NCBI RefSeq assembly: GCF_009914755.1
Contig: NC_060933.1
Source of the DNA: the human T2T-CHM13v2.0 reference genome, Homo sapiens
DNA: 64,000 bases
Direction: 5' to 3' (one strand)
Below the pieces are notes generated by a model that was not told the DNA's origin, searched no databases, and saw only the letters and a list, made by a program, of their open reading frames with translations. Below are positions 1,819 through 58,338 of this stretch, one piece after another (position 1 is the stretch's first letter; each line of letters starts with the position of its first letter). A program made the position numbers and the translations under genes.

Positions 1819-2483
<665 letters not shown>

Positions 2484-3181
2484 AACGTATGGTAATTTTA
2501 AATCAGTTTTGGTATTAAAAATCATGTAATTTTGGAAAATATTGATAATGGAAAAACCCAAATTCTGCCAAAATATGTTGAGAAAATAGAGGGTAAATAT
2601 ATCTTTTCAGACTTTAAATGCCTCAGGCTCTTAGTTAATCTTCCCCAGATCTGGGAAGACCTAGAAGGGAAGAGATTGGGCTACGTTAATGAGCGCCATT
2701 TCAATCTCTTGGCCCTGCAGCAGCCATTTCAAAATACGACAAAAAAATATATTTGGGGGTAAAATATTTTGATTTCCTTCAGCTTCTTCTCTCTGTGATG
2801 CTGCACCAGAATCAGGTTGGAAAGGAAGCCACATTATAAGAGTTAATAAAACCCATCTGATGAGATTTGATAGTTTGAAGGGTGTGATTCCCAGACCCTT
2901 TAGATAGAAATTGAGGCCAAGGAAAACAAGGTCTTATTCCTCAATATAAATCTGTCAGTGCTCTAAGCAGTGAAAGATTTTTCATTTAATTTTACAGACT
3001 TGAAACTAATGAAAAGGATAGCTTTTAAAATATAAATCTCTTTTTCTATGAAAAGGACATGCTGTTGATTCTCTTAGGCCTTGAACCCTGGCCAGTGATC
3101 TGAAACCAAGCAGTACCTGTCTCCAGATCACTAGTACCAAAATCACTAGTACCAAATTAATTTGGGGTGGGGGATAACAGG

Positions 3182-19334: not shown

Positions 19335-19935
19335 GGCCTGGTCAATGGACCATGCTCAGAGATGACCTGGTCATCAGGACCTAGTCAGTTGGGACCTGGT
19401 TAGTGGTGGCCTCCTCAGTAAAGGCCTCATCAGTGGGGACCTGGTGACCTAGTCATTGGAAGCCCAGTTCATGGGGACCTAGTCAGTGATGGTCTTCTTA
19501 GTGAGGCCTGATGGGCTGGAACATAAACAATGAAAAACTGGTTGGTGGGGCCTATACAGTATACTAGGGGCCTGGTCAGTGTGGGGCCTTAGTGGCTTGG
19601 AGCCTCGTTAGTGAGGGCCTGGTCAGAGGGGGCTCAGTCAGCTGGGGACTGATCCATGGAAAATTGTTCAGTGGGGGTCAGGTGAGCAGCGACCTGGTCA
19701 ATTGTGGTCTTGTCAGTGGGAACCTGGTCAGTGGGGACCAGGTCAGTGGGAAATTGGTCAGTGAGGTCTGGCCTGTGAGGTCTGGCCTATGAGGCCTATT
19801 AAGTGTGAGCCTGGTTAGGAAGACATGGTCAGTGGGGACTTGGTCAGTGGGAACTGGTAAATGGAGGAGTGGTCATTAGAGGCCTCATCAGTGGGAAACT
19901 GGTCCTGGGTGGCTGGTCAGTAGGAACCTGGCCAG
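19335..19935. repeat. Degenerate 15-bp minisatellite (GGCCTGGTCAGTGGG), block 1
   Basis: period-15 units, e.g. gtcagtgggaacctg gtcagtggggaccag gtcagtgggaaattg at 19712-19756. Confidence 0.88.
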
Positions 19936-20301
19936 CTGGCCACTGTGTGACCTCAGGCAGGGGGTTTGTCTGGAGTCTCCTTGCCTCCATCTGCAGGGAA
20001 GGTGAGTCAGGGCACCTTGGAGGGTGGCTGGAAAGAGAAGGTGAGAAGATGTGTTGAATCCAGCACCACTTGGCAGACCTACAACTTTACACATGACTTG
20101 TGTTCCACCTAGAGGGGGTGCCAGCCCTCTCTGCTGTGCCTGGTGCCCCTCCTCTCTCTGCATCCCCAGGACCACCATGGGTGGGGAAGGCAGAGATTGG
20201 GGAGCACCTGTAGAAGCTCTAATGCTGGCCATGAGCCCTCAGTGATGACCTGGGTGCACCTGTGAGTGGAGAAGCTAGGCCTGGCCAGAGAAGCAAGAGA
20301 A

Positions 20302-20372
20302 ACACACACACACATATGTGCACACACACACACAGGCACACACACATGCACAAACACACTGCATCCACACAT
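20302..20372. repeat. Imperfect (CA)n microsatellite
   Basis: visible CA run with interruptions. Confidence 0.85.
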
Positions 20373-20479
20373 GTCAGTTCAGGGGATAGAGGACACTGAC
20401 TCTGGGCCCTGTTGACCCATGCAGGCTCCCATTGTGGTGGGTTGTGTCACCCCACAATGTCACTGTTGCTGAGCCCCCA

Positions 20480-20720
20480 TCGCCTCTGTGTTGTGGAGCA
20501 GTTAGAGACACACTGTGGTGTCTGAGTGTCTCTGCATGAAGGACCGTTTTCTAGGTGAGAGGCACATCTCAACACAGCTGACTGATCAGACTCAGATGAG
20601 TGGGACCTGCTCTCTTCTCTTCCTCCTAGCTTGGGGACAGTCGCTATCAGGTGGGTGGTTTTGGCCTCTGGGCAGCTACTGAGGGTAATCCCTGAACACT
20701 CACCGGATGCCTATTCTGTG
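20480..20720 (+). pseudogene. TBC1D3-family 5' non-coding exon and intron start (degenerate)
   Basis: tgagaggcac...cagctgactgatcagactcag|ATgagtgggacctgctctctt...ttggcctctgggcagctac resembles remembered TBC1D3 exon 1/intron 1; donor GT>AT; region may overlap FAM95-type lncRNA annotations. Confidence 0.55.
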
Positions 20721-21318
20721 CTGACAGTCATCTCGTTCATCCTCGCAGCAATTCCATTCTGCATCTTTTCTAGTCACCCCCGTGATTACCCAGGACAACC
20801 CCATCAGGCCCTCTCACCCAGGCCCAGTCCAGCTCCATGATAACCAAGACGCAGGTCCAGAGACAACCGCCCTGCATGGTGCCTGCATCTGACCCCCTTG
20901 GTGGGTAGTGACCAGCACAACATGGAAGAAGTCAGGGCAGCATGCAGCCAGCTGCCCTGCAGCCCCAGATGGCTCCTAGGCCTTGGGAAGTCATTCTCAA
21001 AGGGGAAGCTGGTCATTTTGAGGTCCCTGGAGGGAAGGGTGAATGTGTCATCCCAACAGCCCTGGAAGCCAGCAGCATGCCATACATCTTACCCAACCTG
21101 TGTGACAGAGGCCCCCTCCTGGGGCACAAGTCCCATACCTAAAGGGTCCTGTCCCAGTTGAACCTCATCCTGAGCCCTGGGAGGGGAGGAGCACCATGGG
21201 CCTCCCTGCAGCAGCCAGGGTTACCACCCAGGGGACTCAGCCTTCTGTGGCCCTGGCCAGACTTAGAATTTGGCCCAAGACAAGACAAGCTCACTCGGAG
21301 CAGCTTGTCAGTACCCGG

Positions 21319-44000: not shown

Positions 44001-45008
44001 ACTATCTCCTTAATACTGTCTGCGTGATAGTGAGTTCTCTTGATGATTATGGAGCTTAAAGATTGAGTGAATATTGTCCTGCTGGGGTTTGGACTGACAT
44101 TTTTGTATTTTTCTGGGGAATTTTTTCCCTTTGGATTGAGAAACCTTACTTAATGCTGGTACTATCATTGTATCTTGAAAGAAAAGAAATGCCTTTTGAA
44201 CTCAGGGACTCATAGGCCGAAGGGACTGTAGCCTTGTCTCAGATGAGACTTTGAATTTTTTATATTTGGAATGAGTTAAGAATTTTGGAAACTTTTGAAA
44301 ATGCATGACTGTGTTTTGCTGTGTGAGAAGGACATGAGGTTCTGGGGTATCTGGGTCAAATAATATGGATTGGCTGTGTGTCCGTATAAAACTCACATGG
44401 AATTGTAATCCTTAATTTTGGGGCCTGGTGGTAGGTGATTTAATCTTGAATGGGAGGGGGTTCGGGGTGGTAGGAAAAGGAGGGGTAGGGTGGGGAGGAG
44501 TAGGTTGTCAGTAGGGTGGTAGGAGGGTGGGGGGTAGTAGGAAGGGGGAGTAGCCTTCTGCAGAGGCAGAGGCTCATGGAAAACCTCTACTAGGGCAGTG
44601 CACCTGTGGCTTTGCAGGCTTTAGCCCCATGGCTGCTCTCATGGGCTGGGCTGGTGTTGAGAGCCTGTAGCTTTTCCATACTGGGGGTGTGAGCTGTTGG
44701 TGGGCCTATGAATCTGGGATATGGAGGATGGTGGCCTCCTTTTTGGGGGCTCCAAGCCCATATTTTCCTTCTGCACTGCCATAGTGGAAATTTCTCAAGA
44801 GGCTTGGCCTCTGCAGGAGGCTTCTGCCTGGAAACAGTGGGCGGTGGTGTGGGTGCAGGATCTTCTTGATGCTGATCTCCTGATAGTGAGATCTCATGTG
44901 ATCTGGTTGTCTAACAGGGTGTGGTACCTCTTTCCTCTCTGTGTCTTGCTCCTACCCCTGCCATATGAAACATCTCATTGCCACTTGGCCTTCTGGTATG
45001 ATTAGGAA
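23003..45008 (+). repeat. Tandem macrosatellite of ~3.1-kb units made of rearranged MST-type MaLR LTR and internal fragments (~7 units)
   Basis: marker CAGTGCACCTGTGG at 24670, 27790, 31138, 35589, 38534, 41536, 44596 (spacings 3120, 3348, 4451, 2945, 3002, 3060); starts with a near-normal LTR followed by the internal-region start at 23003-23600. Confidence 0.93.
31490..32197 (+). mobile_element. Retroposed non-repeat AT-rich insert with poly(A) tail and TSD (orphan transduction or truncated processed pseudogene)
   Basis: A11 tail 32187-32197; TSD aacaggatatagc / aaaaggatatggc; other units show the empty site tataacagggtgtggcacc. Confidence 0.85.
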
Positions 45009-45870
45009 GGGCCTGGTCAGTGTGGGCCTGGTCAGTGAACTAGTCAGTTGGGACTTGGTCAATGAGGCCTATTTACTGGGGGAATGGTCAGCCAGGGTCT
45101 GCTTAGAGAGGGTCTCATTAGAGGGATCGAGTAGTGCAGGTCTTGTTGAGTGGGGACCTAGTGGCAGACAAATGTTTGGTGTCTGGTCAGTGCAAACCTG
45201 GGCTGCAGGGCTTGGTGAGTGGAGACCTGGTCAGCTGTGGCTTGGTGGTAGCCTTGTCAGAATGGGCTGGGTCACTGGTGACCCGGTCAAGGGGTGCTAT
45301 TCAGTGGAGGCCTGGTCACATGGGACCTAGTCAACAGGGCATGTCCTCATCAGTGAGGCCCTTGTCAGTGGGACCCTGGTCACGGCAGCCTGGTCAGGTC
45401 AGTGGAACCTAATCAGTGGGGGCCTGGTCAGAGAGGACTTGATCAGTGGTGGCTTTTGTAGCACTGGTCTATGGGGTGACCTGGTCAACGGGGGTCTGAG
45501 CGGTACATGCCTGTTCAGTGGTGCCTAGTCACTAGGTTCCTGGTCAGGGGCATCTGGTCACCGCAGGCCTGGTTAGTAGGGGCCTGGTCACTGGCAGCCT
45601 GTTCCCTGGAGACCTGGTCAGTGGGGCTTCATCTGTGGGGCCAGGCAATGGGGTCATGATTGATGGAATGTGGTCAGGGAGGCCTTGTCAGTAAGGCCCT
45701 GGTCAGTGAGGCCTTGTCAGTGAGGTCCTTGTCAGTGGGGTCCTGGACACTGTGGGCCTGGCAGCGGGAATCTAGTTAGTGGGGCCTGGTGATGGGGGCC
45801 TAATCAGTGAGAGTGTGGTCAGGGAGGACCTGATGTGCGGGATCTGGTCAGCAGGGACCTGGTCAGTGGG
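45009..45870. repeat. Degenerate 15-bp minisatellite (GGCCTGGTCAGTGGG), block 2
   Basis: same unit as 19335-19935; abuts the end of the MaLR array. Confidence 0.88.
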
Positions 45871-46099
45871 GCTGCTGAGCACTGCTGGGAGGTGTCAGGG
45901 GAAATGCATGTTGTCAGGGGAAATGCATGTTATCAGGGGCCCTATGGACAGCTGGGATGGCCCAGTGGTGTCCAATGGCCCAGTCAAAAGTGGACAAAGC
46001 AGGTGTTTGGATGGACCTGGGAGATCTTGTTCAGAGATTCTGAAAGAACAAAGGTAAAGGACGGGCCAGAGTGGCTAGAGAGATGGTCACAGTCTATGG

Positions 46100-47070
46100 G
46101 CTGCACAGGATGGAGGAAGCCATGGAACAGGCAGGGTGGGCAGCAGGGGTGCAGGGAGAGGCAGGTGCATGCTGGGAGATCGGACCCTGTGAGGGCTGTG
46201 GGGGCGTCAGGTGGGGTGGGCTCCAGGTGCACTCTCAGTGCACTGGGCAGGTCTCGGTCCAGGCTCTCTGGACCCTGGTAGGGTGATGTGGTCACTCCCT
46301 GGGGGACTGCTGTCAGGCCCAGCCACCCACCCTTGGCAGCAGTGTCCCATCTCTGGACTGGACTTTCTCAGATCCTGCAGAGGGCACAGCCTCCAGCCCA
46401 GAAGGGGCAGCCCCTTGGTGCAGCCCAAGCTCTCCATGGGCCTGGAGCATCCCTGCCAGCCCTGTGCTCCGTCTACTCCCAGGTCCCGCTTTTCAAGTGT
46501 CAGCCAGCAGAGAGGCTCCGTCCTCCCTTCCCTATGTGTCTCCTGGGCTGAAACTTGGGGCGCATTGGGACAGGGATGGTGCTTTCCTCAGGCCCATTTA
46601 GGGAGGAGACTGGCTCCCAGCCTGGCACAGGTCCTCAGCTCTGCCTTGGTTGCCTTAGAGTGACATGGATCAGTCAGTGCCCTGAAGGTAAATGGAAGAG
46701 ACTGTCCCTGCTGTGTGGGAGGCTGGTCTAGGGATGGAGGACTTGGCAGGTCCTCCCAGTCTGTCAGGCCTGGACAGCACTGTCCTGTCTCAGGACTCAG
46801 GAAGTCCGGTCCTGGGATGGGATGGTGCTGCCCAGGGTGGGTGGCCAGGGCTTGACAGCAGTCCCCCAGGAAGTGACCACATCAGCCAACCAGGGTCCAG
46901 GGAGCCTGGCCTGAGACACCCACCCAGTGCATTGAGGGTGCACCTGGAGCCCACCCCACCTGATGCCCCCACAGCCCTCGCAGGGTCTGACCTCCCAGCA
47001 TGCACCTGCCTCTCCCTGCACCCCAGATGTCCACCCTGCCTTTTCCCTGACTTCCTCCATCCTGTCCAGC
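46100..47070. repeat. Inverted repeat, ~280-bp arms, ~410-bp spacer
   Basis: 46100-46377 vs 46791-47070; ORFs on opposite strands share PSALRVHLEPTPPDAPTAL. Confidence 0.92.
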
Positions 47071-48585
47071 AGGATGGGCTGGTCAGTGGGACAGCCTCTG
47101 TGCACATTTTGTGGCAAGTAGGAGTGACACATCATTCCTGGGAGGCCCCGTGGTTCCTGCCAAACCCAACCCCAGAATTCTCCCTGAGGTGGTTTTACCA
47201 AACCCATAACCCAGAACTGCTATTGTGGTTTGGGGGTCAGCACCCACCGGCGCCAGGGCACTACTGGGAGGCTGGGACCTGACCAAAGCCCATGGTGTCT
47301 GTGGCCTGAGGACAGGGTGTCTTGGGGCCATGAGGACAGGCCACCAATGGCCGTTGGGTCATAGGGCCTGAGCCCCAGTGTTTGTCCTTCCCTGGCTCCT
47401 TCTGGTTCAGTCCCATCAGGGCTCTGGATCCCAAGACACAGCATCCAAAGTTCCCTCCAGGAATCCTGGTGGCTTGGCTTACTTTGTCATGTTTCATCTG
47501 ATAGCAAAAATATCAGATCGGCTGCACAGAAAAAAATGGCTCACAGTGCTTAATGACCAGAAGAAATCTAGGAGCAGCAAGAAGGTAATGTGGAGAGGGG
47601 AGGACCTCCATGACCGGTGTCCGCAGAGCCAGGGGTACAGGCACCCAGTGCAGTGACCTGGCACCACCTGCCTCTCAGAGGGTGGGTAGCACACTGTCCT
47701 TACCTGGGGGACAGCAGGCCTGGTCACCAGCTTTTCTCCCTGTCCCTGCAAGCATCACATTGCTGGAAGAGAATTTCATGCCAGAGCTTGGACCATCCCT
47801 AGCTTGGGGGTTAGGGGTTGTCTCTTGGTGACCTAAATGAAAAAATAGGTCCAGATCAGAGTTCCTGATGCATAGCACTCACCCACTCTTTGAATCATGG
47901 GAGGGGAGGCCTAGTCCTAGGTAAACCTAAACTCTTTGAGGAACCACAGAGCCCAAGGCTGGAAACCTCCAGAATCCTCCAGCCCCCGATCCTCCCCGGG
48001 GACTGCTGTGGCCTGTCTCACCAGAGCACTCTTCTGTCTGTAGATGTCTCAGCTGCTCTACAAGGGAGTCCTATTTCAGGTGTGGGGCTGGGTATGGTCA
48101 CTCCTGCTGGATGTCTAGAAGGTGAAAACCAAGGACCTAGGAAAATACCAGATACAGCCTTTCCACCATCATCCAGAGCAGGACAAACACGCCAGGTGGT
48201 GTCAGGAACCTAGGTCTCCAGCTGGAGGGAATGTCAACCCTGCAGTGGGAGCCCATCACACATCCTAGGCACAGATGCTAATGTAGGCACCGCAGGTAAG
48301 CTGGTCTTGGTACCCCTCCCTGGCTTCAGAAAGAAGCCAAACAAGGAGCTTTCTGCAGAATGAAACCTCTTTTCCATCCAGAAGCACTGCTGACTGTTTG
48401 GTGGTTGCCGTTAGGGCAGTGAGCCTTTTGTCCATTCTGAGATTGGGCTGGTTTCTCCTCTTGGCCCTGCCCTACAGACCATAAAGGAAAACAGCAAGAG
48501 GTCCCCAGCAAACATCTACAGATGGCCCTGGACATCAGCCACATTCGGAGAAACGTGTCATGTTCTGGGAGGACTAAGGCATCGA
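46661..48585 (+). pseudogene. Unprocessed TBC1D3/USP6/TBC1D26-28-family (Rab-GAP TBC) gene fragment; exons 46661-46687, 47505-47584, 48044-48151, 48478-48585
   Basis: exons read (S)DMD..VSALK; ..RKKWLTVLNDQKKSRSSKK; MSQLLYKGVLFQVWGWVWSLLLDV*KVKTKDLGKYQ; TIKENSKRSPANI/QMALDISHI..MFWED*GI; sizes 80/108/108 nt vs 81/108/110 recalled for TBC1D3; one donor GT>AT. Confidence 0.82.
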
Positions 48586-48953
48586 GTAAGGCCTATGGGG
48601 CTGGAGGATCCCAGGGCAGGTGGGGCAATCCAGAGCTGTGGGGGCTTCCATGGGAATTGGGAGGTCCCAAGGCAGAGGTAGGGGTTCCACAGGAGGAGTC
48701 ACAGAGCACCAAGTGTTCTCTTGGCCCAGGGAGCAGTCAACACCATGGACTGAACACCCACTGGGCTAAGCCCTGGGCCAGGCTGGGGCATGTGGGGCCA
48801 GGAGGCAGCTCAGAGTGGGAGACAGAGAGACAAGTGTGCTCAGAGGGCACCCGTATCTGCATATAACGTGGTCCTGAGTTTCTGGCTGGGAAGTGCTTCC
48901 AGGGTTTCATATGTGTTATGGAGATGCTTCCTCTCTCCAACCTCACCGTGCAG

Positions 48954-49936
48954 GAATCCCAGTGAATATATTGCCACCATCTTGGAGCTCAGTGCCCTCA
49001 TAGTGTAAGAGCACCAGCAGATCTGCCTGTGCACAGACTTCCTGTACTACCTCACTCCTGAGGGGAGATGCTTCTGCAGGGCCTGCGACCTGGGGCACAA
49101 CTTTAGACACCATCATCCTGGAGCGGCACTGCACCCTCACTAGCCAGGGTGTTGATGACTTCCTCAATGCCAAGGCCACGTTCAAGATTTTCGACTTCAG
49201 TGATGCGTTTGTGCTGAGCAAGGTGGGCTTCTCCGGGATCTTAATTCAAGAGGTAGAATGCAGCTTGAGATCTAGTGTCTGATCGAAGAACTTGAACTTG
49301 ACCTGGAGGGCTCTGGGGAGCCATGGAAGGTGCTGGATAAAGGAGGGACAGTCATATATGTTTTAGAGATGACTGTGGAAGGCTGCCTGGAAGGAGTGAA
49401 CAAGAGCCAGGAGACCAGGGAGGGAGTTTGTGGGGCAGGTCTGGAGATGGCAAGGGAGGGATCCTGCTTGGATGAAAGGACTTCAGGGACTGTCTCGGGT
49501 TACACTCAGGTGCCCTCAGAGCTACTGTGTTCAGGGTTCTTGTCTCCAGGATGAAAATAAGGAGGAGTTGTCAGACAAGGACATATACATGGAGGCTGGC
49601 ATCTTCGTGAGTGCCAATCGTGGTCCTGGTGTGGACTACTGTGGGAACAGGGGTCTCTCCATCCAGGGACATGGTGGATGGACCCTACGTCACTCCATTC
49701 TGCCCTTCCTTTCCCTCCCATTCTCCTGAGGGACTCAGTGCATGGGCACTGTCCAACCTCTGGTGCTGAAGCAGCCAAGAGACCCAAGCCTGCCTGGCTG
49801 CCACTTAGGATATGACAGCACAGCCAGTGGCCTCTACTGGATCCTGGTACCCCTCAGAAGACACCCAGACACTGGGAGTGCTGCCACCTCGTGGTGCAAG
49901 AGTTCTGAGGGATGGCAATTCTGAAGACATTTAATG
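48954..49936 (+). pseudogene. CYP4F: Unprocessed CYP4F pseudogene fragment, exons 7-9 (48954-49222, 49550-49606, 49809-49936)
   Basis: NPSEYIATILELSALIV*...QGVDDFLNAKATFKIFDFSDAFVLSK; DENKEELSDKDIYMEAGIF; GYDSTASGLYWIL; GT-AG boundaries retained, stops and frameshifts; exact CYP4FnnP paralog unknown. Confidence 0.93.
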
Positions 49937-50444
49937 GTGGGTGCCAGGCCTCATGGCTGTTCCCCAGCCCCTCTCATTGGCTCTGCTCCAGGTGGAGAAG
50001 GGGGATGATGTCTCTGTCAGTTCTGCCAGTTTAGCCTAGCAGGAAAAGAAGCAGAGCCCAGAAGCAGGGCCTGGTACCCAGCCTGCCTAACAAGGGAGAA
50101 TTTGTAGGCTTTGTGGACAGAAAGATCTGGGACTCCATGTCACCCACTAACTTGCTGAGACATTAGTAAAATCAGTTTTCTTTTCTGAACTATGTTTCTG
50201 TCATCTGTACATTGAGAGGAATTTCTTTTACTCCACGAGGCTGCTTGGAGAATTAGTGACAGTGTGTGTAGAGCATGTGCCACCCAGCAGGCATTTGGTG
50301 TCGAGACCACACCTCCTCCCCCTTCATTTTCAGCCTAAATTTGCATTTTGTTCTTAAGACTTTCACTCGCCTTAATTTTACTCTTTCCTCTGATTCCCAC
50401 CTTATCGTCTATCCCATGGAGTCACTAGGATCTAAGTGGGTAAC

Positions 50445-50532
50445 AGTCATGTATGCATGTATGTGTATGTACGTATATACTTTGTTGGTGTTGGAGTGTG
50501 GTGTGTGAATGTGTGTGTGTGTGTGTGTGTGT
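50445..50532. repeat. (TG)n / (TATG)n microsatellite
   Basis: visible run. Confidence 0.85.
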
Positions 50533-50599
50533 TGGAGTTACTGGGTGACTGAAACTGTACACATCAAGCTGTCGTTCTGCTCATTGCTGGAAGCGCTGT

Positions 50600-51017
50600 C
50601 AGGGGTCCTGCCCTCAATCCCAGGTCTGACCCTTGCAGCGCAGGCAGGACATTCTGGAGGAATCATGACTTTGGGAGGACCCCTGAGGAGTGACTGGTGG
50701 GTATTGGTGAATAAATACCTCTGGTCCCTTGCTCTGGGTATGACGACTCTGAAGCACATGTTCTGTGCTGTCTCTCAGAGGTACCTGGCAGGGCTGAGTC
50801 CTGGCTGCCACAGTGGAAACTTTCTTGATGAAGGTCCGTTTAACTGCTGCATTCCTTTCCTGTCTCAGTTCCCCACTCCTCCACTGATGTTTCCTGGGAT
50901 TAGCACCCTAAGGAAGAACTGGCAGTCGAATTAATATCCTAGCGTTATCTCCAAACAACATTTTTGTATTTGAATCTTTGCCTCAGGATCTACTTCCAGG
51001 AAATTCAGACTAAGACA
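50600..51017 (+). mobile_element. ERVL LTR16-like remnant
   Basis: 3' end ctcaggatctacttccagggaaattcagactaagaca resembles LTR16 termini. Confidence 0.55.
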
Positions 51018-51059
51018 CACATTTTTCTTTTGGCTCCTTGAATCCCCATAGGCCTGACA

Positions 51060-51560
51060 TTTTGCTGTTTTTATCAAAAAGGAACATGAGGATCAGAGAG
51101 GGAAAGTCACTTGCCCAAAGTCACCCAGCTGAACAGTGGTAGAGTTCAACTTTGATCATGAGATGTCTGGCCCCAAGGTGGAGGCTTGCTCCTCTCTCAT
51201 GAGACTCCTTCCTTATCAGGGTCAAATGAATGAATGGAGGATGTTAAAAGTGGGGTCTCTGATGCCTTTGCCAGATAAACCCCAGGCTCATGGCTGGTGC
51301 CTGTTTTCTCATTCTTACCTCATTAAGAGTAGTAATGAAAAAACATGCTCAGTGCTGACCGTGTGCCTGGGGGTGTTGTAGGCACTCCGCTTACTTTAAT
51401 TCATTTAATTTTCACAATAACCTTGTTTTTACTTCTAGTTGTTATGTGAAAAAACTGAGGCAAAGAGCAATACAGAGAGTTGCAAAAATTCATACCGCTG
51501 GTCCAGGTTTGAACCAAACAGTCTGCACCTGGAGTCCTTGTTTGTAACCATGGCACCCTG
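51060..51560. mobile_element. MIR fragments
   Basis: MIR core motifs (gtcacttgcccaaagtcacccagct; aaactgaggc). Confidence 0.65.
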
Positions 51561-51640
51561 TCTTCACACATATCTCATCGTGGAATTCCATCTTGTGTTA
51601 GGCATGGCACTGAGCAGCTTCTTTTAAGAACATAATTTGT

Positions 51641-51932
51641 AGCCAGGCGCAGCGGCTTATGCCTGTAATCCCAGCACTTTGGGAGGCCTAGGCGGGCAGA
51701 TCACGAGGTCAGGAGATCCAGACCATCCTGGCTAACTTGGTGAAACCCCGTCTCTAGTAAAAACACAAAAAATTAGCTGGGCATGATGGTTGGCACCTAT
51801 AGTCCCAGCTACTTGGGAGGCTGAGGCAGGAGACTGGCATGAACCCGGGAGGTGGAGCTGCAGTGAGCCGAGATGGCACGACTGCACTCCAGCCTGGGTG
51901 AGAGAGCAAGACTCCATCTAAAAAAAAAAAAC
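51641..51932 (+). mobile_element. AluY SINE
   Basis: gatcacgaggtcaggagatc, accatcctggctaac diagnostics; TSD aacataatttgt. Confidence 0.93.
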
Positions 51933-53553
51933 AAAACATAATTTGTAATTATGTAAATTACTAATTCTACTTCAAAGTGCCACACAGCCTTCATGTGATA
52001 AAATGAAGCAATTGGTAAGTCTAAGCATTGAGAAAAAACATTATTTTTTCCACTCCCAGCTCCATTCCAACAGTTGGGACAGTGTTTTCTCTGTGCCTAT
52101 AGAAACCTCAGCTACTGTGCCGAGGAGTCTGGTCCCTTTGGGGAATGTGACAGTCAGGTGCTGGCAGGGACCTCGAAGTGGCTGAAAGATCATTAAGAAA
52201 AAGCTGTTTACAAACGTGTGGGCTGGGCCAAGGGGAACCATGAGGAAGGTGCAAGGCCCTGGGGTTAGCATCATCTGGGAGCTGTCACCACACTCCAGGC
52301 TGATGGGGCCATGGAGAAGCTGTTCCAGTAACTCAGAGGGAGAATCTACAGCTGAAAGAGGTGGCCAGGGGACACATCACTCCCTGTGCCCTTTGACTGC
52401 ATCTGGATGCCCCCACTAACCACACTACCATCTCCTTATTAGATTGGAGAGGTTGCAGGGCAGGGTTCTAAGCCTCCTATTGTGGCTCACCTCCAACAGT
52501 GAGCCAGCAACAGCTCCCCTAGCCCCACAGCCCAGGGTCCACTTAGCCCCTCTATCCTGCATGGTCCCCTTCCCCTCTGGGAAGCAGATACCCAAAAGAG
52601 CAGCAGAAACCTGTCTCTCTCTGCAGGGCCCTCTGCTCCTTGTGAGTGGTGTTTTGTGGGTGTCCTCCCTTGGTTTTGGATGGGAAACACCCTTTTCCCT
52701 TCCACAGGGATTGTTTCTGTGGACCCCACCCTGAGTGGGGTCCCTGTTGGGACAATGGGCAGGTGGGGATGGTGGGACCAACTCTTTAGGACCAGCAATG
52801 CCAAACAGATCCCACTCCGGGGAAGTTCATTCTAAGTGTCATGGGTCCTCTGGAACTTTTTGAAGGTTTCCTGTTTTCTTCTCCCCCTAATCAGCTCATC
52901 TGATCCCCTGGGATCTCTACTAAGATGCTGGCAGCCCAACCAGCTGGTCTGGCCCTGGACATGCCTTCAGGGACTGGTTATCCTTCATGACCTGTGTTGT
53001 GGTCATTGGTAAGCAGCACCTGCTTCTAGCTTTACTGTTGGGCCAGATTTCATCCCCACCATGGCTCTTCACTGCGGCTGCTTCCTGCTCCCTCCATGGA
53101 CCTGCACAGAATTGTCCCATGTTTCTGTTTGGGCACCACTGAGGAAGGAAGCATGAAGGTTGCACAGGTCAGGCCATTCTATTGCCCTCCTGCTGCTGGG
53201 TCTTTAATCCTGGGATGGCTTCAGGGGCTGGTCCTTCTCCATGGCCTCTCCACATATCTCAGGTTTCTACTCAAAAGTCACCTCTTGGAGGGGTCTCTCC
53301 CTGTCACTGTGTTTGGAACAGCTCCTTCAGTTTCTTTCTAGCTCATCTCACTCTGGTAATGTCTTTCATTACCACCACCACATGACCTGGTCTTGCGACC
53401 TGTTAGCTTCCTTCATCAGGCATGAGCACCAGGATGGCAGGGGCCTCATCTGTCCTATTCCTCCTGTGGCCTGGGTCCTAGCACCATGTCTGGTACAGTG
53501 TAGGTGCTCAAGGGAAGTTTACTTTATAGAACTGTCTACCTGGGAGATGTTGC

Positions 53554-53944
53554 TGTTAGTCTAACCTGTACCATTTTGTAAACCTGCAGCCATTTTGCAC
53601 ACCCTGGTCAGAATGAAACATTCCTTGGGAACTCGGGCCGTGAGAAGCATCCTTCCTGATCACCTGACTGTAGAAACATCCTTATCGCACCCTCCCGGGC
53701 AAAGGCCCAACAGCCTGACTGCAGGAACATCCTTGCCATATCCTGCCGGGCAGCAAGCTCTACAGCCCAGACCCCTCCTTCCCAGTCCCATGATCACCCC
53801 AGCCTGTGAGAGGCAGTTGGTGCTGGCAGTAAGCTGGTTTCCTCCTCTGCAGGGTTTTGCTAGTAATAAAGGTGTTGCTGTTGAAGCCGTCAACTGTCTT
53901 TCTCTGTCTTTCTTTAACCCTCGCCTTGCCTTCAAAATCTAACA
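53554..53944 (+). mobile_element. Solo ERV LTR (ERVL-class, LTR18-like)
   Basis: TGTTAG...CTAACA inverted termini, internal AATAAA near 53865; subfamily uncertain. Confidence 0.72.
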
Positions 53945-54499
53945 ATAGCTCTACCTCTCCATTTTACCAAGGAGGATATGAGACTCAAGGAGAGCAAGAG
54001 ACTTACCCAGAATTACAGAGCCAGTGAGTCACAGAGCCTGAACTTGAGCTCAATTCAGCTGAATCCAGAACTCATGTCTTCCTGAGAGTCCAGGGAAGGA
54101 AAGGTGGAACTGCAGCCAGTGGGTGCCCACAGGCTTGTCCTAGGAGACCACATGCAGCCTCCTGGGAATTGTGTCCTCTTGGGCACAAAAGAAGAACTGT
54201 TCACCTGTGCTGCATCAGCTAAGTGTCCCCATTGTCCCAAATTGTTATATTTTTTCAAAGTTTTGTTTTAATAACTAGATTTCTCACAGCTCAGTGTTGA
54301 AAACAAAGCACAGAGGCATATAGAAAGCCTTGTTTGGGTTTTTCTCATTTTTTCCCCAGTGACTATACAAATGAATGTACAAAAGAGCACAAGTACGCTC
54401 ATACTTTTTATATAGAGATGAGGCTCCCCCACTCATATTCCTCTGCCACTACTCTTCCTTTTTTTTTTTTTTTTTTTTTTCATGGGAGGACCTCTCTTT

Positions 54500-54930
54500 C
54501 AATACTAGTCCATGTGATTTGGGAAGGCTGACCCACCCTGGGCAATCAGATCGGCAGGGTAATTGATTCAGGAGTGGTCATGTGATCCAAGCTGGGCTCA
54601 TGGAAGTCATCCCTGAACTTTTGATGAAACTGCTGGGAATGAGGTGCTTTCTTTTTATTGGCATATCTATTTGTAAGGAAGTAAGTGATGTGAACTTTAT
54701 GGGGCCATTTTTGCTGCTCTCTCAAAACAGCCTGCCTGAAAAGCAGAGCTGACACAGGAAATGAAGGGACAGAATGAGCCTTGGTTTATATTAGTTGACC
54801 CCTGATCCCACTGAGACAGAAGCCCATCTAACTCATGTACATTTTTAGTAAGTAAAGCCAAATAATTCAATGTTCCGCTGGATCCAGTTAGGTTTCAGTC
54901 ACTTGCAGTCAAGAGAGTCCTTCATAATAG
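54500..54930 (+). mobile_element. MLT1-type LTR remnant
   Basis: ends gtcacttgcagtcaagagagtcct, typical of MLT1J/K. Confidence 0.55.
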
Positions 54931-55149
54931 CACTTTCTGTGATGCTTAGGTCCCACCTGCCAGAGCTTTAGAACTGTAGAAGGGTAAAGTGAACCCAGGC
55001 AGTGCTGAGCTAGCTAGTCTCCTGGCTAAGTGTGCAAAGGAACCCTGGAGTCACTACCACTTTGGTCTGAAAAATAGCCTTGCCTGCTGCTTACCATACA
55101 GCCATAGGGGTATTGCTTCCCTGAGCCTGTAGGCATTATACCTCTTTTT

Positions 55150-55272
55150 AAAAATGATGTTTATTTAAGAAAATGTTTTGTGCAGATGGTGTCTTGCTAT
55201 GTTGCCCAGGCTTGTCTTGAACTCCTGGCCTAAAGTGCCGAGATTATAGGCACGAGCCACTTTGCTTGGCCA
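55150..55272 (-). mobile_element. Alu monomer/FLAM fragment
   Basis: ttgctatgttgcccaggcttgtcttgaactcctggcc. Confidence 0.75.
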
Positions 55273-55321
55273 GCACTATACTTCTATTAGTTGTCAATGC
55301 TTTTTTGTTCTGTAGTTTCTA

Positions 55322-55425
55322 GTGTGTGCTTGAGCATGCGTGTGTATGTGTGAGTTTATGTGTGTGTATGTATGCGTGAGAGTGTATGTGTGAGTTTTTG
55401 TGTGTGTGAGTGTGTTTGTGTGAGT
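55322..55425. repeat. Imperfect (TG)n tract
   Basis: visible run. Confidence 0.8.
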
Positions 55426-55645
55426 TTTTACCTTTGTCTTGCAGGGTTATTGCAAGCATCAAGTGGGATCTCTGTTCTCTTTTCTCCTCCTGATTCAGAG
55501 AATGACTTAAGGATCTGTGATGTGTGCCAATTTTCAACGCCCTGCATAAATAATGGGGAGTACTGTTGCCATAACTTTGCACTAGTTTTAATTCATTTTA
55601 TCTGTTTAGCATGAGATAACTCAAAGTCCCTGAATAAATTTATGT

Positions 55646-55690
55646 CATATATATATACATATATATATATATTTATATATATATACACAT
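55646..55690. repeat. (TA)n microsatellite
   Basis: visible run. Confidence 0.85.
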
Positions 55691-56330
55691 AAGTATGTTT
55701 CTTGAGAGCTGACAAGCTTAGTTTTTGTTCCCTGATGCTGCAGTAGAGGCCACTGTGTTCTGATTTTCGAGTGATGGCTGCCAGCTCTCCAAGTGTCACA
55801 GTGAGTGAGGCATCCATGGGGGCAAGCGCCAAGGATGAGTGTGGCCAGTCAGCATCTGCAAGCCCGTTTTGTCTATCCTCTTTATTTTTATAATATGTTT
55901 TATTCATTTTTTAGGTTTATCATTTAATCTGTTATAAACTTCTCTCCTAAAATGTTTCTTAGTTCTACTAGGGGTTAGTTTCATGAAACAAGTCCAGAAA
56001 TAGTCCAGGGCAGCCAGGGATACACAACATGCCATTGGGGAGGGAGAAATCTTGTAGATTGAAGGTTTTGTTGTAGGGACAATCGTTCCAATGGTCTTCA
56101 AGTTGCTAAATCCAACTCAGGGCATTTCATCCTATTTCCAGACAGCAGCAAGCAGAGAGAGCAAAGGGAACTTGGTCAACAAAAAAGAGGAACAATAACT
56201 CTCCCCTTTCCAAACAGATTTTCAGAAATCCAAAGCAGTGAATTCTGCATTTCACATTGGCCAGAACTATAAAATTTGCTCACTACAGTTACGAGAAAAA
56301 CTGGGAAACTCATTTAAAGACATTAACCAG

Positions 56331-56670
56331 GGCCAGGCATGGTGGCTCATGCCTGTAATTCCAGCAATTTGGGAGGCCAATGTGGGAGAATCACTTGAGC
56401 ACAGGAATTTGAAACCAGTCCAGGCAACATAAAGAGACCCAGTCTCTACAAAAACAAAACAAAACAAAAGCTGGTTGTGGTGGTGCACACCTGTTATGCC
56501 TGCAGTCCTACCTACTCAGGAGTCTGAGCTGGGAGATCACATGAGCCCAGGAGTTCAAGGCTGCAGTGAGCTCTGATCATGCCACTGCACTCCAGCCTGG
56601 GAGACAGAGTGAGACCATTTTTCAAAAAAAAATTGTAAAATAATAAAATATGCATAAATAAATAAATAAA
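56331..56670 (+). mobile_element. AluJ SINE
   Basis: dimer, (AAAT)n tail, TSD taaagacatt. Confidence 0.9.
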
Positions 56671-57600
56671 GACATTTAAACAGTGCTCCTTGGAAAAAGT
56701 GAATCTATGTTCCCTTAGTGAAGAAGATGAGAATAATGGATATAGCAGGGAAATGGACAGCATTGGCCACATTAGACCAAAATGAAAGTACACCAAATCA
56801 GTACCATTAAAACCACATAATGGGACCATAATGCAGTCAAATTGTGACCAACAAAAACAAACTGACAAAAAAGGTGTCATGGAGCATACGAATTCTAAAT
56901 CTAAATTGAATGGAGCTCAGAAGGGCTTCCCATTGAAAATGAAACTATGTGTATGTAAATGAATTGTAACAAAGCTACTACATAGCAACATTAAGGTGGC
57001 AGAGCGGAAAGGTTGCTAAGACAGATATCTGTCATCTTATAACATTTTTTAAGAAAGGAAAAACTACAAAATTATGAATTTGAGTTCTAATTGGGGGATA
57101 AGACAATGCTAAAGGCAATAATTGTTAACGTTTACTGTGCTTCAGTCCTACCCTGTGCTCATTCATGCCCAATAAGTGAAGAGCTGGAACTGAAAGCTTT
57201 CTTATATTTATTCAATTGTAGTCTCCCTCCAGGGTGTGGAATCATGTATAAAGGAGGGATAGTGTTTAAAGAGGTATTTTCTGCATTTTTTACTTCCATA
57301 AGCAGTCTCTGCTGTGTGAGTTCTTGTATGAACCATGAGTCTGAGACAACACTGAGGCTTTTTTCATATTCCTTACTTTCATAGCTTCTCTCCAGTGTGA
57401 GAACAAATATCTACTCACGATGAATGAAGATGAAAGGCTTTCCATAGACTTTACCTTCAGAGGGTTTCTTTTCACACTTCTGTAAGATAGGAGAGTTCAG
57501 GAAAGATGTTCTCAAGCGTGTTAACTCATTGAGCTCCCTTCCAGTATGTCCTCCTCACATGTTCAGTATGGTGAAAAATTAATGATGATTTCCCTGCCTT

Positions 57601-58338
57601 TCACTCACAGGGCTTCTCACTATTGTGAATCTTAAGATGGCTTTTAATTCTGGTGACTTTGCAAAGTCTTTTTCACATTTATCACATTTATAGGGTTTCT
57701 CCCAGTGTGACTCCTTATATGTGCATGTTTTGAGCCTTGCTTGAAGGCTTTCCCACATTCCTTACATCCATAGGGCTTCTCCAGAATGTTCTTTCTTAAA
57801 TGTTTATTAAGGTGTAGGGAATATCTAAAGCCTTTCTCACTTTTGTTACATTCATAAGGTTTCTCTCCAGTGTGAAGTTTCATATGTCTCATAAGAAATG
57901 ACTGATAACGTAAAGGCTTTCCTTCATTTGGGACATGTATGGCTTTTCTCTCCAGTAGTACTACTCCTGTGTGGACAAGAATTTGGAGCAGGGACAGAGG
58001 TTTTTCCACTTTGATGATTCTTATTCTTCATCTCTACAGAACAGGACTGCATCTGGACAGCATGGCCTGAGTTATTTCTGAAGATGTTTTCACATTGAGT
58101 AAAATTATACATTTTCTCCCTAACATGAGTTATGTGTGCCCTAAGGCACATGTCTTCACTACAGTCTAATTCAAATGGACTCCACTCATGAATGTTTGTC
58201 CTTGTATTAATTTTACTATGTATATGATGGACATTGTTCTGACTGCCTGTCCATGTGTTTGATTTTAGCTGTTTTTCTCCCATATGAAACCCAGTGAATG
58301 TTGCACTTCAAGACTATCATGTTGATTGTTTTCATATA
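57601..58338 (-). pseudogene. ZNF114P: ZNF114-like C2H2 zinc-finger pseudogene (last-exon fragment)
   Basis: KSNTWTGSQNNVHHI...YQSFLMRHMKLHTGEKPYEC...FRYSLHLNKHLRK...KIHNSEKPCE* matches remembered ZNF114; premature stop, frameshift; truncated at an L1. Confidence 0.88.

What the first reader, a model, noticed from the sequence alone, without database searches (positions are those of the whole stretch)
46661..49936. Phase-compatible TBC1D3/USP6-family x CYP4F gene fusion
Seen: four spliceable exons translating to the N-terminal half of a Rab-GAP TBC domain (KKW..VL.D..K.RSSKK; YKG....WG.VWSLLLD; K.RS...I..DISHI) are followed ~370 bp later on the same strand by CYP4F exons 7-9. The last TBC exon ends in phase 2 (ATC GA|gt) and CYP4F exon 7 starts in phase 2 (ag|G AAT CCC), so splicing reads ...I-E-N-P-S-E-Y. 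Intron similarity appears to switch from TBC-type to CYP4F-type near 48800-48815 (recalled sequences). Known: USP6 arose as a TBC1D3-USP32 fusion. Inference: this is an independent, now disabled TBC fusion that may be annotated only as a CYP4F pseudogene/lncRNA, and its 5' exons are TBC-derived.
Basis: partly seen in the sequence, partly recalled or inferred. Interest (0 to 1): 0.82.

Follow-up and report, generated by a model that had tools for sequence, protein, structure and literature searches.

The report
TBC–CYP4F chimeric pseudogene, FAM95 lncRNA
A dead fragment of a TBC1D3-type gene is joined to a dead fragment of a CYP4F gene, and the pair is transcribed as a non-coding RNA of the FAM95/PITAR family, so it is a by-product of duplication near the centromere and not a lost fusion protein.

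Summary
Window 45978-48801 is colinear, exons and introns, with TBC1D3, TBC1D26 and TBC1D28 at 68-75% identity. Window 48783-50255 is colinear with CYP4F8 and CYP4F23P at 73-79%. The switch lies at 48783-48802, and both parental introns are phase 2.

It is not a USP6-like fusion gene.
- The same junction occurs in 17 copies on chr2, 8, 9, 13, 18, 20 and 21, so it arose once.
- All 17 copies share two frameshifts and a TAA in the last TBC exon. All 16 copies that keep the first CYP4F exon share a 2-bp deletion and a TAA there.
- The TBC start-codon exons have no homolog anywhere in the window.
- Only about the first third of the TBC domain and the middle third of P450 are present.
- One frameshift is also found in related TBC fragments on chr16 and chrX that are not joined to CYP4F.

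The unit is transcribed. The curated lncRNAs FAM95B1 (PITAR) and LOC105379252 use exactly these TBC and CYP4F splice sites. PITAR's published TRIM28-binding element maps to TBC-intron-derived sequence at 46098-46176. I found no paper stating the TBC origin of FAM95. The finding is ordinary in kind and modest in interest.

The parts
45978..48801 (+). Genomic fragment of a TBC1D3/TBC1D26/TBC1D28-family gene. It holds part of an upstream intron, four coding-exon homologs and the first ~216 bp of the next intron. It has no start-codon exon.
   Evidence: Colinear blastn and MAFFT alignments to TBC1D26, TBC1D28, TBC1D3 and an unannotated TBC-like pseudogene at chr19:19.88M. TBC1D3 coding exons 1-2 have no hit in the window.
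46098..46176 (+). Homolog of the ~80-nt element of PITAR (FAM95B1) exon 1 that was deleted in the published deltaPITAR construct. That element is the TRIM28 3'UTR-binding region. It lies in TBC-intron-derived sequence.
   Evidence: The site-directed-mutagenesis primers of PMC11415074 map at 46073-46097 (-) and 46177-46194 (+). The element is 77/79 identical to the FAM95B1 locus and 67/77 identical to the TBC1D26 and TBC1D28 intron.
46100..46336 (+). Left arm of an inverted duplication.
   Evidence: the repeat finder gives I1 46100-46255 / 46915-47070 at 90% and I2 46251-46336 / 46832-46917 at 84%. TBC1D3, TBC1D26, TBC1D28 and the chr19 copy hold this sequence once.
46832..47070 (-). Right arm of the inverted duplication. 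It lies inside an insertion (about 46745-47080) that is absent from TBC1D3, TBC1D26, TBC1D28 and the chr19 copy. The arms flank the first TBC exon homolog.
   Evidence: The inverted matches appear at the paralogous copies.
46661..46687 (+). Homolog of TBC1D3 coding exon 3 (ETELPPLTAREAK). It carries a 7-bp deletion. The ancestral donor GT is now GG, and a cryptic GT lies 6 nt upstream.
   Evidence: Alignment. The 7-bp deletion is in 16 of 17 copies and is absent in the chr8 copy.
47505..47584 (+). Homolog of TBC1D3 coding exon 4 (QIRREISRKSKW...). AG and GT are intact. A 3-bp deletion is shared by all copies, and a 2-bp A-run insertion private to this window copy shifts the frame.
   Evidence: Its donor at 47584 is used by FAM95B1 and LOC105379252.
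48044..48151 (+). Homolog of TBC1D3 coding exon 5 (LIDRAYKG...RGPMW...). It has an in-frame TAG at 48116-48118, CGG>TGG at the Arg of the R..W motif, and donor GT>AT.
   Evidence: tblastn of TBC1D3 exons against the window gives E = 6e-5 and 44% identity over 32 aa. The acceptor at 48044 is used by FAM95B1.
48478..48585 (+). Homolog of TBC1D3 coding exon 6 (IMKEKGKRSS...IDRDVSGT...). It has two 1-bp deletions and a TAA at 48575-48577. The donor GT is intact and the parental intron phase is 2.
   Evidence: All 17 copies share these lesions. The donor at 48585 is spliced to 48954 in RefSeq models.
48783..48802 (.). Breakpoint interval between the TBC-type and CYP4F-type intron, with a short G-rich overlap (CTGGGGC...AGGA) common to both parents.
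   Evidence: The junction sequence is the same in all 17 copies.
48783..50255 (+). Genomic fragment of a CYP4F gene of the CYP4F8/CYP4F23P lineage. It holds the end of one intron, three exon homologs and the start of the following intron.
   Evidence: No CYP4F8 similarity is seen beyond 50255 although the fetched CYP4F8 locus runs 2.3 kb further.
48954..49222 (+). First CYP4F exon homolog (annotated as CYP4F60P, 48954-50018). It has a TAA at 49006-49008 and a 2-bp deletion. AG and GT are intact.
   Evidence: (tblastn E = 5e-20). The parental CYP4F8 exon matches Pfam p450 positions 170-248 of 462.
49550..49616 (+). Second CYP4F exon homolog. Its donor is lost in this copy.
   Evidence: The parental exon matches p450 positions 252-273.
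49809..49936 (+). Third CYP4F exon homolog, with two 1-bp deletions and a TAA.
   Evidence: The parental exon matches p450 positions 275-313. It is an exon of XR_007080240.1.
46197..53893 (+). lncRNA LOC124906824 (three Gnomon models). All three splice 48585->48954 and use the CYP4F exon 48954-49222.
   Evidence: RefSeq annotation read.
19603..20725 (+). A separate piece homologous to the 5' end of TBC1D26, TBC1D28 and TBC1D3. It adjoins SNX18P5 and lies 25 kb upstream of the rest.
   Evidence: The chr19:19.88M TBC-like pseudogene also has an SNX18 pseudogene beside it.

Best explanation
This is one junction in a pericentromeric mosaic of small duplicated segments. An internal 2.8-kb fragment of a TBC1D3-family gene, very probably already dead, became joined to a 1.5-kb internal fragment of a CYP4F gene of the CYP4F8/CYP4F23P lineage. 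The fragment holds coding exons 3-6 and no start exon.

The join happened once, intron to intron, at a short G-rich overlap. This is inferred to be non-homologous or microhomology-mediated end joining. The unit then spread by segmental duplication to at least 17 places on chr2, 8, 9, 13, 18, 20 and 21.

No protein is encoded. What survives is RNA-level. Several parental splice sites are still used, so the locus gives spliced non-coding RNAs of the FAM95 family. These sites are the donor at 47584, the acceptor at 48044, the donor at 48585, the CYP4F acceptor at 48954 and the CYP4F donor at 49222. The window copy is LOC124906824, and its locus is 97.6% identical to FAM95B1 (PITAR).

Shown here: the homologies, the single shared junction, the shared lesions and the shared splice sites. 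Inferred: the joining mechanism, the order in which the TBC gene died and the fusion took place, and any PITAR-like activity of this particular copy.
For: - Colinear TBC homology over 45978-48801 and CYP4F homology over 48783-50255.
- The same junction sequence in 17 of 17 copies.
- The TBC part of the 17 copies forms one clade with 100/100 support.
- Lesions shared by all copies, including the earliest-branching chr8 copy: TBC exon 48478-48585 has two 1-bp deletions and a TAA in 17/17. CYP4F exon 48954-49222 has a 2-bp deletion and a TAA in 16/16 present. CYP4F exon 49809-49936 has at least 2 deleted bases in 14/14 present. A TAG in exon 47505-47584 is in 12/17, including chr8.
- No homolog of the TBC1D3 ATG exon in the window, although it is found in TBC1D26, TBC1D28 and chr19.
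- Exon and intron divergence are alike among the fused copies: 0.161 against 0.157, 0.095 against 0.081 and 0.125 against 0.097.
- The neighbouring sequence is also a patchwork. 54435-55905 resembles chr8:38.80M and 56331-58335 resembles ZNF114 at chr19:51.28M.
- The splice sites of NR_026759.1 and NR_136310.1 map exactly to 47584, 48044, 48295, 48382, 48585, 48954 and 49222. The Gnomon models here use 48585->48954.
- FAM95B1 is described as a nuclear, non-coding, testis- and glioma-expressed RNA (PMC11415074, passages).
Against: - The phases of the two parental introns match, which a fusion gene would need. This is expected by chance one time in three.
- The donor at 48585 and the acceptor at 48954 are intact in every copy that has them. 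That could reflect past or present selection on splicing.
- The stem leading to the common ancestor of the fused copies is long, at 0.12-0.16 changes per site. A coding phase on that stem is not directly excluded.
- Pfam gave no hit for any of the six translated window pieces. The protein-level TBC evidence in the window rests on one exon at E = 6e-5 plus the DNA alignments.
- Expression of this particular copy is only modelled by Gnomon. I saw no reads.
Confidence: 0.85

Rival explanations
1. This is a USP6-like chimeric protein-coding gene. A TBC-family 5' half spliced in frame onto CYP4F exons, made a fusion protein in an ancestral primate, and was later disabled.
For: - Both parental introns are phase 2.
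- The splice sites at 48585 and 48954 are conserved in all copies.
- Spliced RNAs cross the junction.
- The same gene family gave rise to USP6 (PMC4949931, passage).
Against: - The common ancestor of all 17 copies already had stops and frameshifts on both sides of the junction.
- There is no start-codon exon in the window.
- The TBC part stops after about profile position 67 of 216, and the P450 part covers only positions 170-313 of 462. On recalled knowledge of P450 architecture, that range excludes the heme-binding region.
- One exon frameshift is shared with the chr16 and chrX TBC fragments, which are not joined to CYP4F.
- The TBC exons show no constraint.
- The open stretch across the junction is 20 codons.
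Confidence: 0.05
2. A CYP4F fragment was inserted into an intron of an otherwise continuous TBC pseudogene, so TBC sequence resumes downstream.
For: The CYP4F piece is short, at 1.47 kb, and is flanked by non-CYP4F sequence on both sides.
Against: No TBC1D3, TBC1D26, TBC1D28 or chr19-type similarity is found anywhere in the window after 48804, apart from Alu matches. The sequence after 50255 has no TBC relative in the genome search, whose 40 scored candidates were partly taken up by Alu matches.
Confidence: 0.05
3. The TBC resemblance is due to chance or low complexity, and the locus is only a CYP4F pseudogene.
For: Pfam finds nothing in the translated window pieces.
Against: There is a 2.8-kb colinear DNA alignment to three annotated TBC genes, with conserved exon boundaries. 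In the genome search of 48094-48416, every match beyond the 17 fused copies lay outside chr19 and so outside the CYP4F cluster. Most lay at chr17 TBC-family loci, including TBC1D26, TBC1D27P, TBC1D28 and TBC1D3 copies.
Confidence: 0.01

Closest known systems
FAM95B1 / PITAR lncRNA and its paralogs (FAM95A, FAM95C, LOC105379252)
   Same: - The window locus is 97.6% identical to the FAM95B1 locus over 45000-50449.
- All splice sites of NR_026759.1 map to conserved GT/AG sites here.
- The equivalent of the published TRIM28-binding element is 77/79 identical.
   Different: - The Gnomon models for this copy start at 46197-46217, downstream of that element, and keep 46197-48585 unspliced.
- This copy has private changes, such as the 2-bp insertion in exon 47505-47584.
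- No experiment addresses this copy.
USP6 (Tre2), the hominoid TBC1D3-USP32 chimeric gene
   Same: The 5' partner comes from the same TBC1D3-type gene family. The join was made at DNA level in a duplication-rich region. Transcripts splice across the junction.
   Different: USP6 is described as a fusion gene and oncogene (PMC4949931, passage). That it keeps a start codon, a whole TBC domain, a whole protease domain and one open frame is my recollection and was not checked here. In this window there is no start exon, both domains are cut, and stops and frameshifts lie on both sides in every copy.
Dispersed CYP4F pseudogene fragments (CYP4F25P-CYP4F62P) in pericentromeric duplications
   Same: The CYP4F part is one of these (CYP4F60P). 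The same three-exon fragment with the same lesions occurs at the other copies, which carry names such as CYP4F25P, 26P, 27P, 29P-35P, 44P, 59P and 62P.
   Different: Those annotations name only the CYP4F part. The adjoining TBC-derived exons are unnamed. At one paralog they carry a CYP4F name (CYP4F45P).
Mosaic pericentromeric duplicons formed by juxtaposing segments from different chromosomes
   Same: Within 64 kb the window holds pieces related to SNX18, a TBC gene, CYP4F, chr8:38.80M and ZNF114. The whole block is repeated near centromeres of several chromosomes.
   Different: Nothing differs in kind. The particular point is that two gene fragments were joined intron to intron in the same orientation, so their splice sites work together. 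The two-step model of such regions is recalled, not checked here.

Membership tests
TBC1D3/TBC1D26/TBC1D28 gene family (as a pseudogene fragment) | Colinear exon-intron homology to family members | tested here: met
   45978-48801 aligns with TBC1D26, TBC1D28 and TBC1D3 at 68-75% identity, with exon boundaries in register. In the tree it falls inside the family.
TBC1D3/TBC1D26/TBC1D28 gene family (as a pseudogene fragment) | Recognisable RabGAP-TBC domain (Pfam PF00566) in the translation | tested here: inconclusive
   0 of 3 TBC pieces of the window gave any Pfam hit at E <= 10. Of three exons of intact TBC1D3 tested alone, two gave no hit and the third gave only a weak one (E = 0.14, positions 37-67 of 216). 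The test therefore has little power on single exons. tblastn of the TBC1D3 exon against the window gives E = 6e-5.
TBC1D3/TBC1D26/TBC1D28 gene family (as a functional gene) | Start codon and an uninterrupted reading frame | tested here: not met
   No homolog of the ATG exon is in the window. Frameshifts or stops are present in all four exon homologs.
Chimeric (fusion) protein-coding gene of the USP6 type | One open frame running across the junction from a start codon | tested here: not met
   Only 20 open codons lie between two TAA stops at the junction. Lesions lie on both sides in 17/17 and 16/16 copies.
Chimeric (fusion) protein-coding gene of the USP6 type | Compatible intron phases at the junction | tested here: met
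   TBC1D3 reads ACC AA|gt and CYP4F8 reads ag|G AAG. The chance expectation is 1 in 3.
Chimeric (fusion) protein-coding gene of the USP6 type | Purifying selection on the exons | tested here: not met
   Exon and intron p-distances are about equal among the fused copies. Power is low, with about 290 exon sites. No dN/dS was run because no frame is intact.
Chimeric (fusion) protein-coding gene of the USP6 type | Open frame in other primates or at the ancestral node | not testable with these tools
   No primate genomes were available. Parsimony over the 17 human copies places the lesions in their common ancestor.
FAM95 lncRNA family | Paralogy with FAM95B1 and the same splice sites | tested here: met
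   97.6% identity. Exact mapping of 7 of 7 tested exon boundaries to GT/AG sites in the window. Gnomon lncRNA models share the 48585->48954 junction.
FAM95 lncRNA family | Expression and PITAR-like activity of this copy | not testable with these tools
   Reads were not available. Only model transcripts exist for this copy. The element homolog at 46098-46176 lies upstream of the modelled start sites.
CYP4F pseudogene | Homology to CYP4F exons and introns, with disabling lesions | tested here: met
   (E = 5e-20). The parental exons match Pfam p450 positions 170-313 of 462.

The most novel reading that the evidence does not exclude
The FAM95/PITAR lncRNA family was born from this TBC-CYP4F chimeric pseudogene. 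Its exon-intron architecture is inherited from the splice sites of two unrelated protein-coding genes. The element through which PITAR is reported to bind TRIM28 mRNA is exapted intron sequence of a TBC1D3-family gene, duplicated in inverted orientation only in the fused lineage. The derivation is shown here by homology. It remains open whether the inherited parts are what make the RNA work, and whether other copies such as this one share the activity.
Probability: 0.5. Interest if true: 0.45.

Novelty: new member of a known kind. Interest (0 to 1): 0.3.

Why it matters
The result explains where a studied cancer/testis lncRNA family (FAM95B1, also called PITAR) comes from. It also points to an annotation problem, because TBC-derived exons are unnamed and in one paralog carry a CYP4F name. 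It is a clean example of how gene fragments juxtaposed near centromeres yield spliced non-coding RNAs and not new proteins. For work on PITAR, it means that several copies more than 97% identical exist, which matters for probes, siRNAs and read assignment. It does not add a second USP6-like fusion protein to the human gene set.

Tried and rejected
- Pfam on six translated window pieces gave 0 families at E <= 10. The pieces are too short and too broken. I fell back on DNA alignments and on Pfam scans of the parental exons.
- I considered chr19:19.88M as the direct TBC donor, because an SNX18 pseudogene lies beside it as in the window. It is sister to the wider group but distant, with a 0.21-0.22 branch, and shares none of the exon frameshifts. 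It is a relative, not the demonstrable source.
- The chr6, chr16 and chrX TBC fragments come out closer. The chr6 and chrX rows have very long branches (0.58 and 0.53) and odd base composition, so their placement is unsure. The homology of chr16 and chrX ends near window 48705, before the CYP4F breakpoint. They therefore cannot show whether their ancestor was fused or not.
- I did not attempt absolute dating. Root-to-tip depth of the fused clade is about 0.08-0.12 changes per site. This GC-rich sequence need not evolve at the genome-average rate, and no primate genomes were available.
- Literature. The search 'CYP4F' + 'TBC1D3' found 23 papers, of which 15 were listed. By title and abstract start, all of those are expression or association studies. 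The search 'CYP4F' + 'pericentromeric' + 'pseudogene' + 'duplication' found 0 papers. For the FAM95 names (62 papers, 25 listed) and the CYP4FnnP names (60 papers, 25 listed), I saw only biomarker and expression studies in the listings, apart from PITAR. The PITAR paper has 0 occurrences of TBC1D, CYP4F, pseudogene or paralog. PMC6414417 lists FAM95B1 as a pseudogene-derived lncRNA with parent CYP4F3 and has 0 occurrences of TBC1D3. Older subscription papers on P450 pseudogenes and on pericentromeric duplications are outside the searched library, so the TBC origin may be in print there.
Supplementary file 8 of PMC11415074, the predicted PITAR-TRIM28 pairing, could refine the element's limits.
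- I did not verify the CYP4F exon numbers 7-9, because the 5' part of CYP4F8 was not fetched.

Full report
WHAT IS THERE

I read 46100-50100 and its translations. I then searched the window's own genome with 46200-48950 and with 48800-50100.

The first query found 16 further copies that run through to its end, at 82-97% identity. It also found several truncated copies. At 67-74% identity it found TBC1D26 and TBC1D28 on chr17 and an unannotated place at chr19:19.88M.

The second query found the same copies and, at 70-79%, the CYP4F cluster on chr19. The longest matches were in CYP4F23P and CYP4F8.

Local blastn and MAFFT against the fetched loci gave these results:
- Window 45978-48801 is colinear, exons and introns, with TBC1D26 and TBC1D28. 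The stretch 46131-48801 is also colinear with TBC1D3. Identity is 68-75%.
- Window 48783-50255 is colinear with CYP4F8 and CYP4F23P at 73-79%.
- TBC-type similarity stops at 48801-48804. CYP4F-type similarity starts at 48783-48792.
- The overlap is a short G-rich motif present in both parents.

THE EXONS

I identified the exons of TBC1D3 on its locus. They splice into one open frame, ETELPPLTAREAK / QIRREISRKSKW... / LIDRAYKG... / IMKEKGKRSS..., with the last exon ending ACC AA|gt.

The four window homologs are:
- 46661-46687. It has a 7-bp deletion. The ancestral donor is now GG, and a GT lies 6 nt upstream.
- 47505-47584. It has a 3-bp deletion and a private 2-bp insertion.
- 48044-48151. 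It has an in-frame TAG. The Arg codon of the R..W motif is now TGG, and the donor is AT.
- 48478-48585. It has two 1-bp deletions and a TAA.

The three CYP4F homologs are:
- 48954-49222, with a TAA and a 2-bp deletion.
- 49550-49616, with the donor lost.
- 49809-49936, with two 1-bp deletions and a TAA.

CYP4F8 starts its exon ag|G AAG CCC. In the window, however, the frame across the junction is open for only 20 codons.

At protein level, tblastn of the TBC1D3 exons against the window finds only exon 48044-48151 (E = 6e-5). The CYP4F8 exons give E = 5e-20. Pfam finds nothing in six window pieces.

Of the parental exons, only the last TBC exon touches RabGAP-TBC, at positions 37-67 of 216 with E = 0.14, below the cut-off. 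The three CYP4F8 exons cover p450 positions 170-313 of 462. Both domains are therefore cut. The TBC part is roughly the first third. The P450 part is the middle third, and by recollection that range excludes the heme-binding region.

ONE EVENT, MANY COPIES, DEAD AT THE ROOT

All 17 copies carry the same junction sequence. They lie at seven places on chr9 and five on chr2, and on chr8, 13, 18, 20 and 21.

In a maximum-likelihood tree of the TBC part they form one clade (100/100), with the chr8 copy branching first. The lesions are distributed as follows:
- The two deletions and the TAA of exon 48478-48585 are in 17 of 17 copies.
- The 2-bp deletion and TAA of exon 48954-49222 are in 16 of 16. 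The chr20 copy has lost most of that exon.
- At least two deleted bases in exon 49809-49936 are in 14 of 14 present.
- The 3-bp deletion of exon 47505-47584 is in 17 of 17.
- An in-frame TAG in exon 47505-47584 is in 12 of 17, including chr8. The window and its four closest chr9 relatives read CAG there.
- The 7-bp deletion of the first exon is in 16 of 17 and is absent in the chr8 copy.
- A stop in exon 48044-48151 is in 15 of 17 and is absent in the chr8 copy and in chr2:95.27M. These last two lesions arose after the first split.

By parsimony, the common ancestor of all present copies already had stops and frameshifts on both sides of the junction. Among the fused copies the TBC exons diverge as fast as the introns.

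The exons holding the TBC1D3 start codon and the next coding segment have homologs in TBC1D26, TBC1D28 and the chr19 copy. They have none in the whole window.

RELATIVES NOT JOINED TO CYP4F

The chr19:19.88M pseudogene continues with TBC-type sequence past the breakpoint. It is a distant sister with a 0.21-0.22 branch. It shares the Arg>Trp change but none of the frameshifts.

A search with 48094-48416 turned up further TBC fragments. With three of them added, on chr6, chr16 and chrX, the tree puts them next to the fused clade at 100/97. The chr6 and chrX rows have very long branches, so their placement is unsure.

The chr16 and chrX fragments share one of the two 1-bp deletions of exon 48478-48585. 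They have 23 bases between conserved anchors, against 24 in TBC1D3, TBC1D28 and chr19. Their TBC homology ends near 48705, at a different junction. This suggests that the TBC donor was already a pseudogene when it met CYP4F. It does not prove it, because those fragments could in principle descend from the fused unit.

CONTEXT

The surrounding sequence is a patchwork:
- A separate piece of the TBC gene's 5' end lies at 19603-20725, next to SNX18P5.
- A piece related to chr8:38.80M lies at 54435-55905.
- A piece of ZNF114 lies at 56331-58335.

TBC similarity does not resume after the CYP4F piece. The TBC|CYP4F join is therefore one of several joins between segments that are each only a few kilobases long.

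WHAT IT DOES NOW

The three Gnomon lncRNA models of LOC124906824 all splice 48585->48954. The curated RNAs FAM95B1 (NR_026759.1) and LOC105379252 (NR_136310.1), at paralogs 97.6% and 94.2% identical, have exon boundaries that map exactly to 47584, 48044, 48295, 48382, 48585, 48954 and 49222. They therefore use the donor of one TBC exon, the acceptor of the next, the donor of the last, and both sites of the first CYP4F exon.

FAM95B1 has been named PITAR. It is described as a nuclear, non-coding, testis-restricted and glioma-expressed RNA whose first exon binds the TRIM28 3'UTR through an ~80-nt region (PMC11415074; passages read).

The primers of that paper place its exon-1 clone at window 44776-46658 and the deleted element at 46098-46176. 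That element is 77/79 identical between the window and FAM95B1. It is 67/77 identical to the corresponding intron sequence of TBC1D26 and TBC1D28.

The element lies in the left arm of an inverted duplication, 46100-46336 against 46832-47070. The other TBC genes hold this sequence only once. The modelled start sites of the window copy (46197-46217) lie just downstream of the element.

COMPARISON AND NOVELTY

The locus works like other pseudogene-derived lncRNAs and belongs to the FAM95 family. It does not meet the defining features of a fusion gene such as USP6, which arose from TBC1D3 and USP32 (PMC4949931, passage).

CYP4F ancestry of FAM95B1 is in print (PMC6414417, table passages). I found no statement of its TBC ancestry in the searches, nor in the PITAR paper. 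Subscription literature was not searchable.

VERDICT

The fusion-protein interpretation is not supported. The thing is a chimeric pseudogene junction that serves as the scaffold of a known lncRNA family.

Noticed in passing
paralog chr9:42957677-42957999 (T2T), equivalent to window 48094-48416: The RefSeq pseudogene CYP4F45P sits on TBC-derived sequence. A genome search with the window equivalent hit the 17 fused copies and further loci mostly of the TBC family on chr17. No hit fell in the CYP4F cluster, among the 40 candidates scored.
   Followed up: yes
window 46100-46336 and 46832-47070: An inverted duplication of about 240 nt, 84-90% complementary, flanks the first TBC exon homolog. The right arm lies in an insertion that TBC1D3, TBC1D26, TBC1D28 and the chr19 copy lack. 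The modelled first exon 46197-48585 holds most of both arms, so the RNA could fold back on itself.
   Followed up: partly
chr19:19879797-19882365 (T2T; loci L034/L035): An unannotated TBC1D3-family pseudogene has homologs of the start-codon exon and of the four exons seen in the window. An SNX18 pseudogene (LOC100533625) lies about 7 kb away, echoing the SNX18P5-TBC neighbourhood of the window.
   Followed up: partly
window 19603-20725: A separate fragment is homologous to the first ~1.6 kb of TBC1D26 and TBC1D28 and to the first ~240 bp of TBC1D3. It directly adjoins SNX18P5, 25 kb upstream of the other TBC piece. The intervening TBC segment with the start-codon exons is missing.
   Followed up: partly
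chr16:38.98M, chrX:51.75M and 51.82M, chr6:29.39M, chr1:245.94M (loci L044-L046 for three of them): Further unannotated TBC-family fragments. The TBC similarity of the chr16 and chrX copies ends at a common, different junction near window position 48705.
   Followed up: partly
chr9:33599222-33623808 (CYP4F26P; loci L040-L042): This copy has a ~1.6-kb insertion inside the homolog of TBC exon 47505-47584. Its annotated pseudogene span starts about 18 kb upstream of the TBC part. I did not examine what that upstream span holds.
   Followed up: no
window 45200-45900 and 19600-19860: Tandemly repeated sequence lies just upstream of the TBC piece. It is also present at 19.6-19.86 kb and, in the opposite orientation, beside the SNX18 pseudogene at chr19:19.89M.
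   Followed up: no
TBC1D3, TBC1D26/28 and chr19 alignments: Across the TBC1D3 family the three exons differ more than the alignable introns do (0.33-0.41 against 0.21-0.32). This is unusual for coding exons. It may reflect fast protein evolution, or the fact that only conserved intron parts could be aligned.
   Followed up: no
window 52185-53353: About 1.17 kb is present in this copy but absent from the four closest chr9 paralogs. Their matches skip query positions 1929-3098. The segment holds the lncRNA exon 52895-53008.
   Followed up: no
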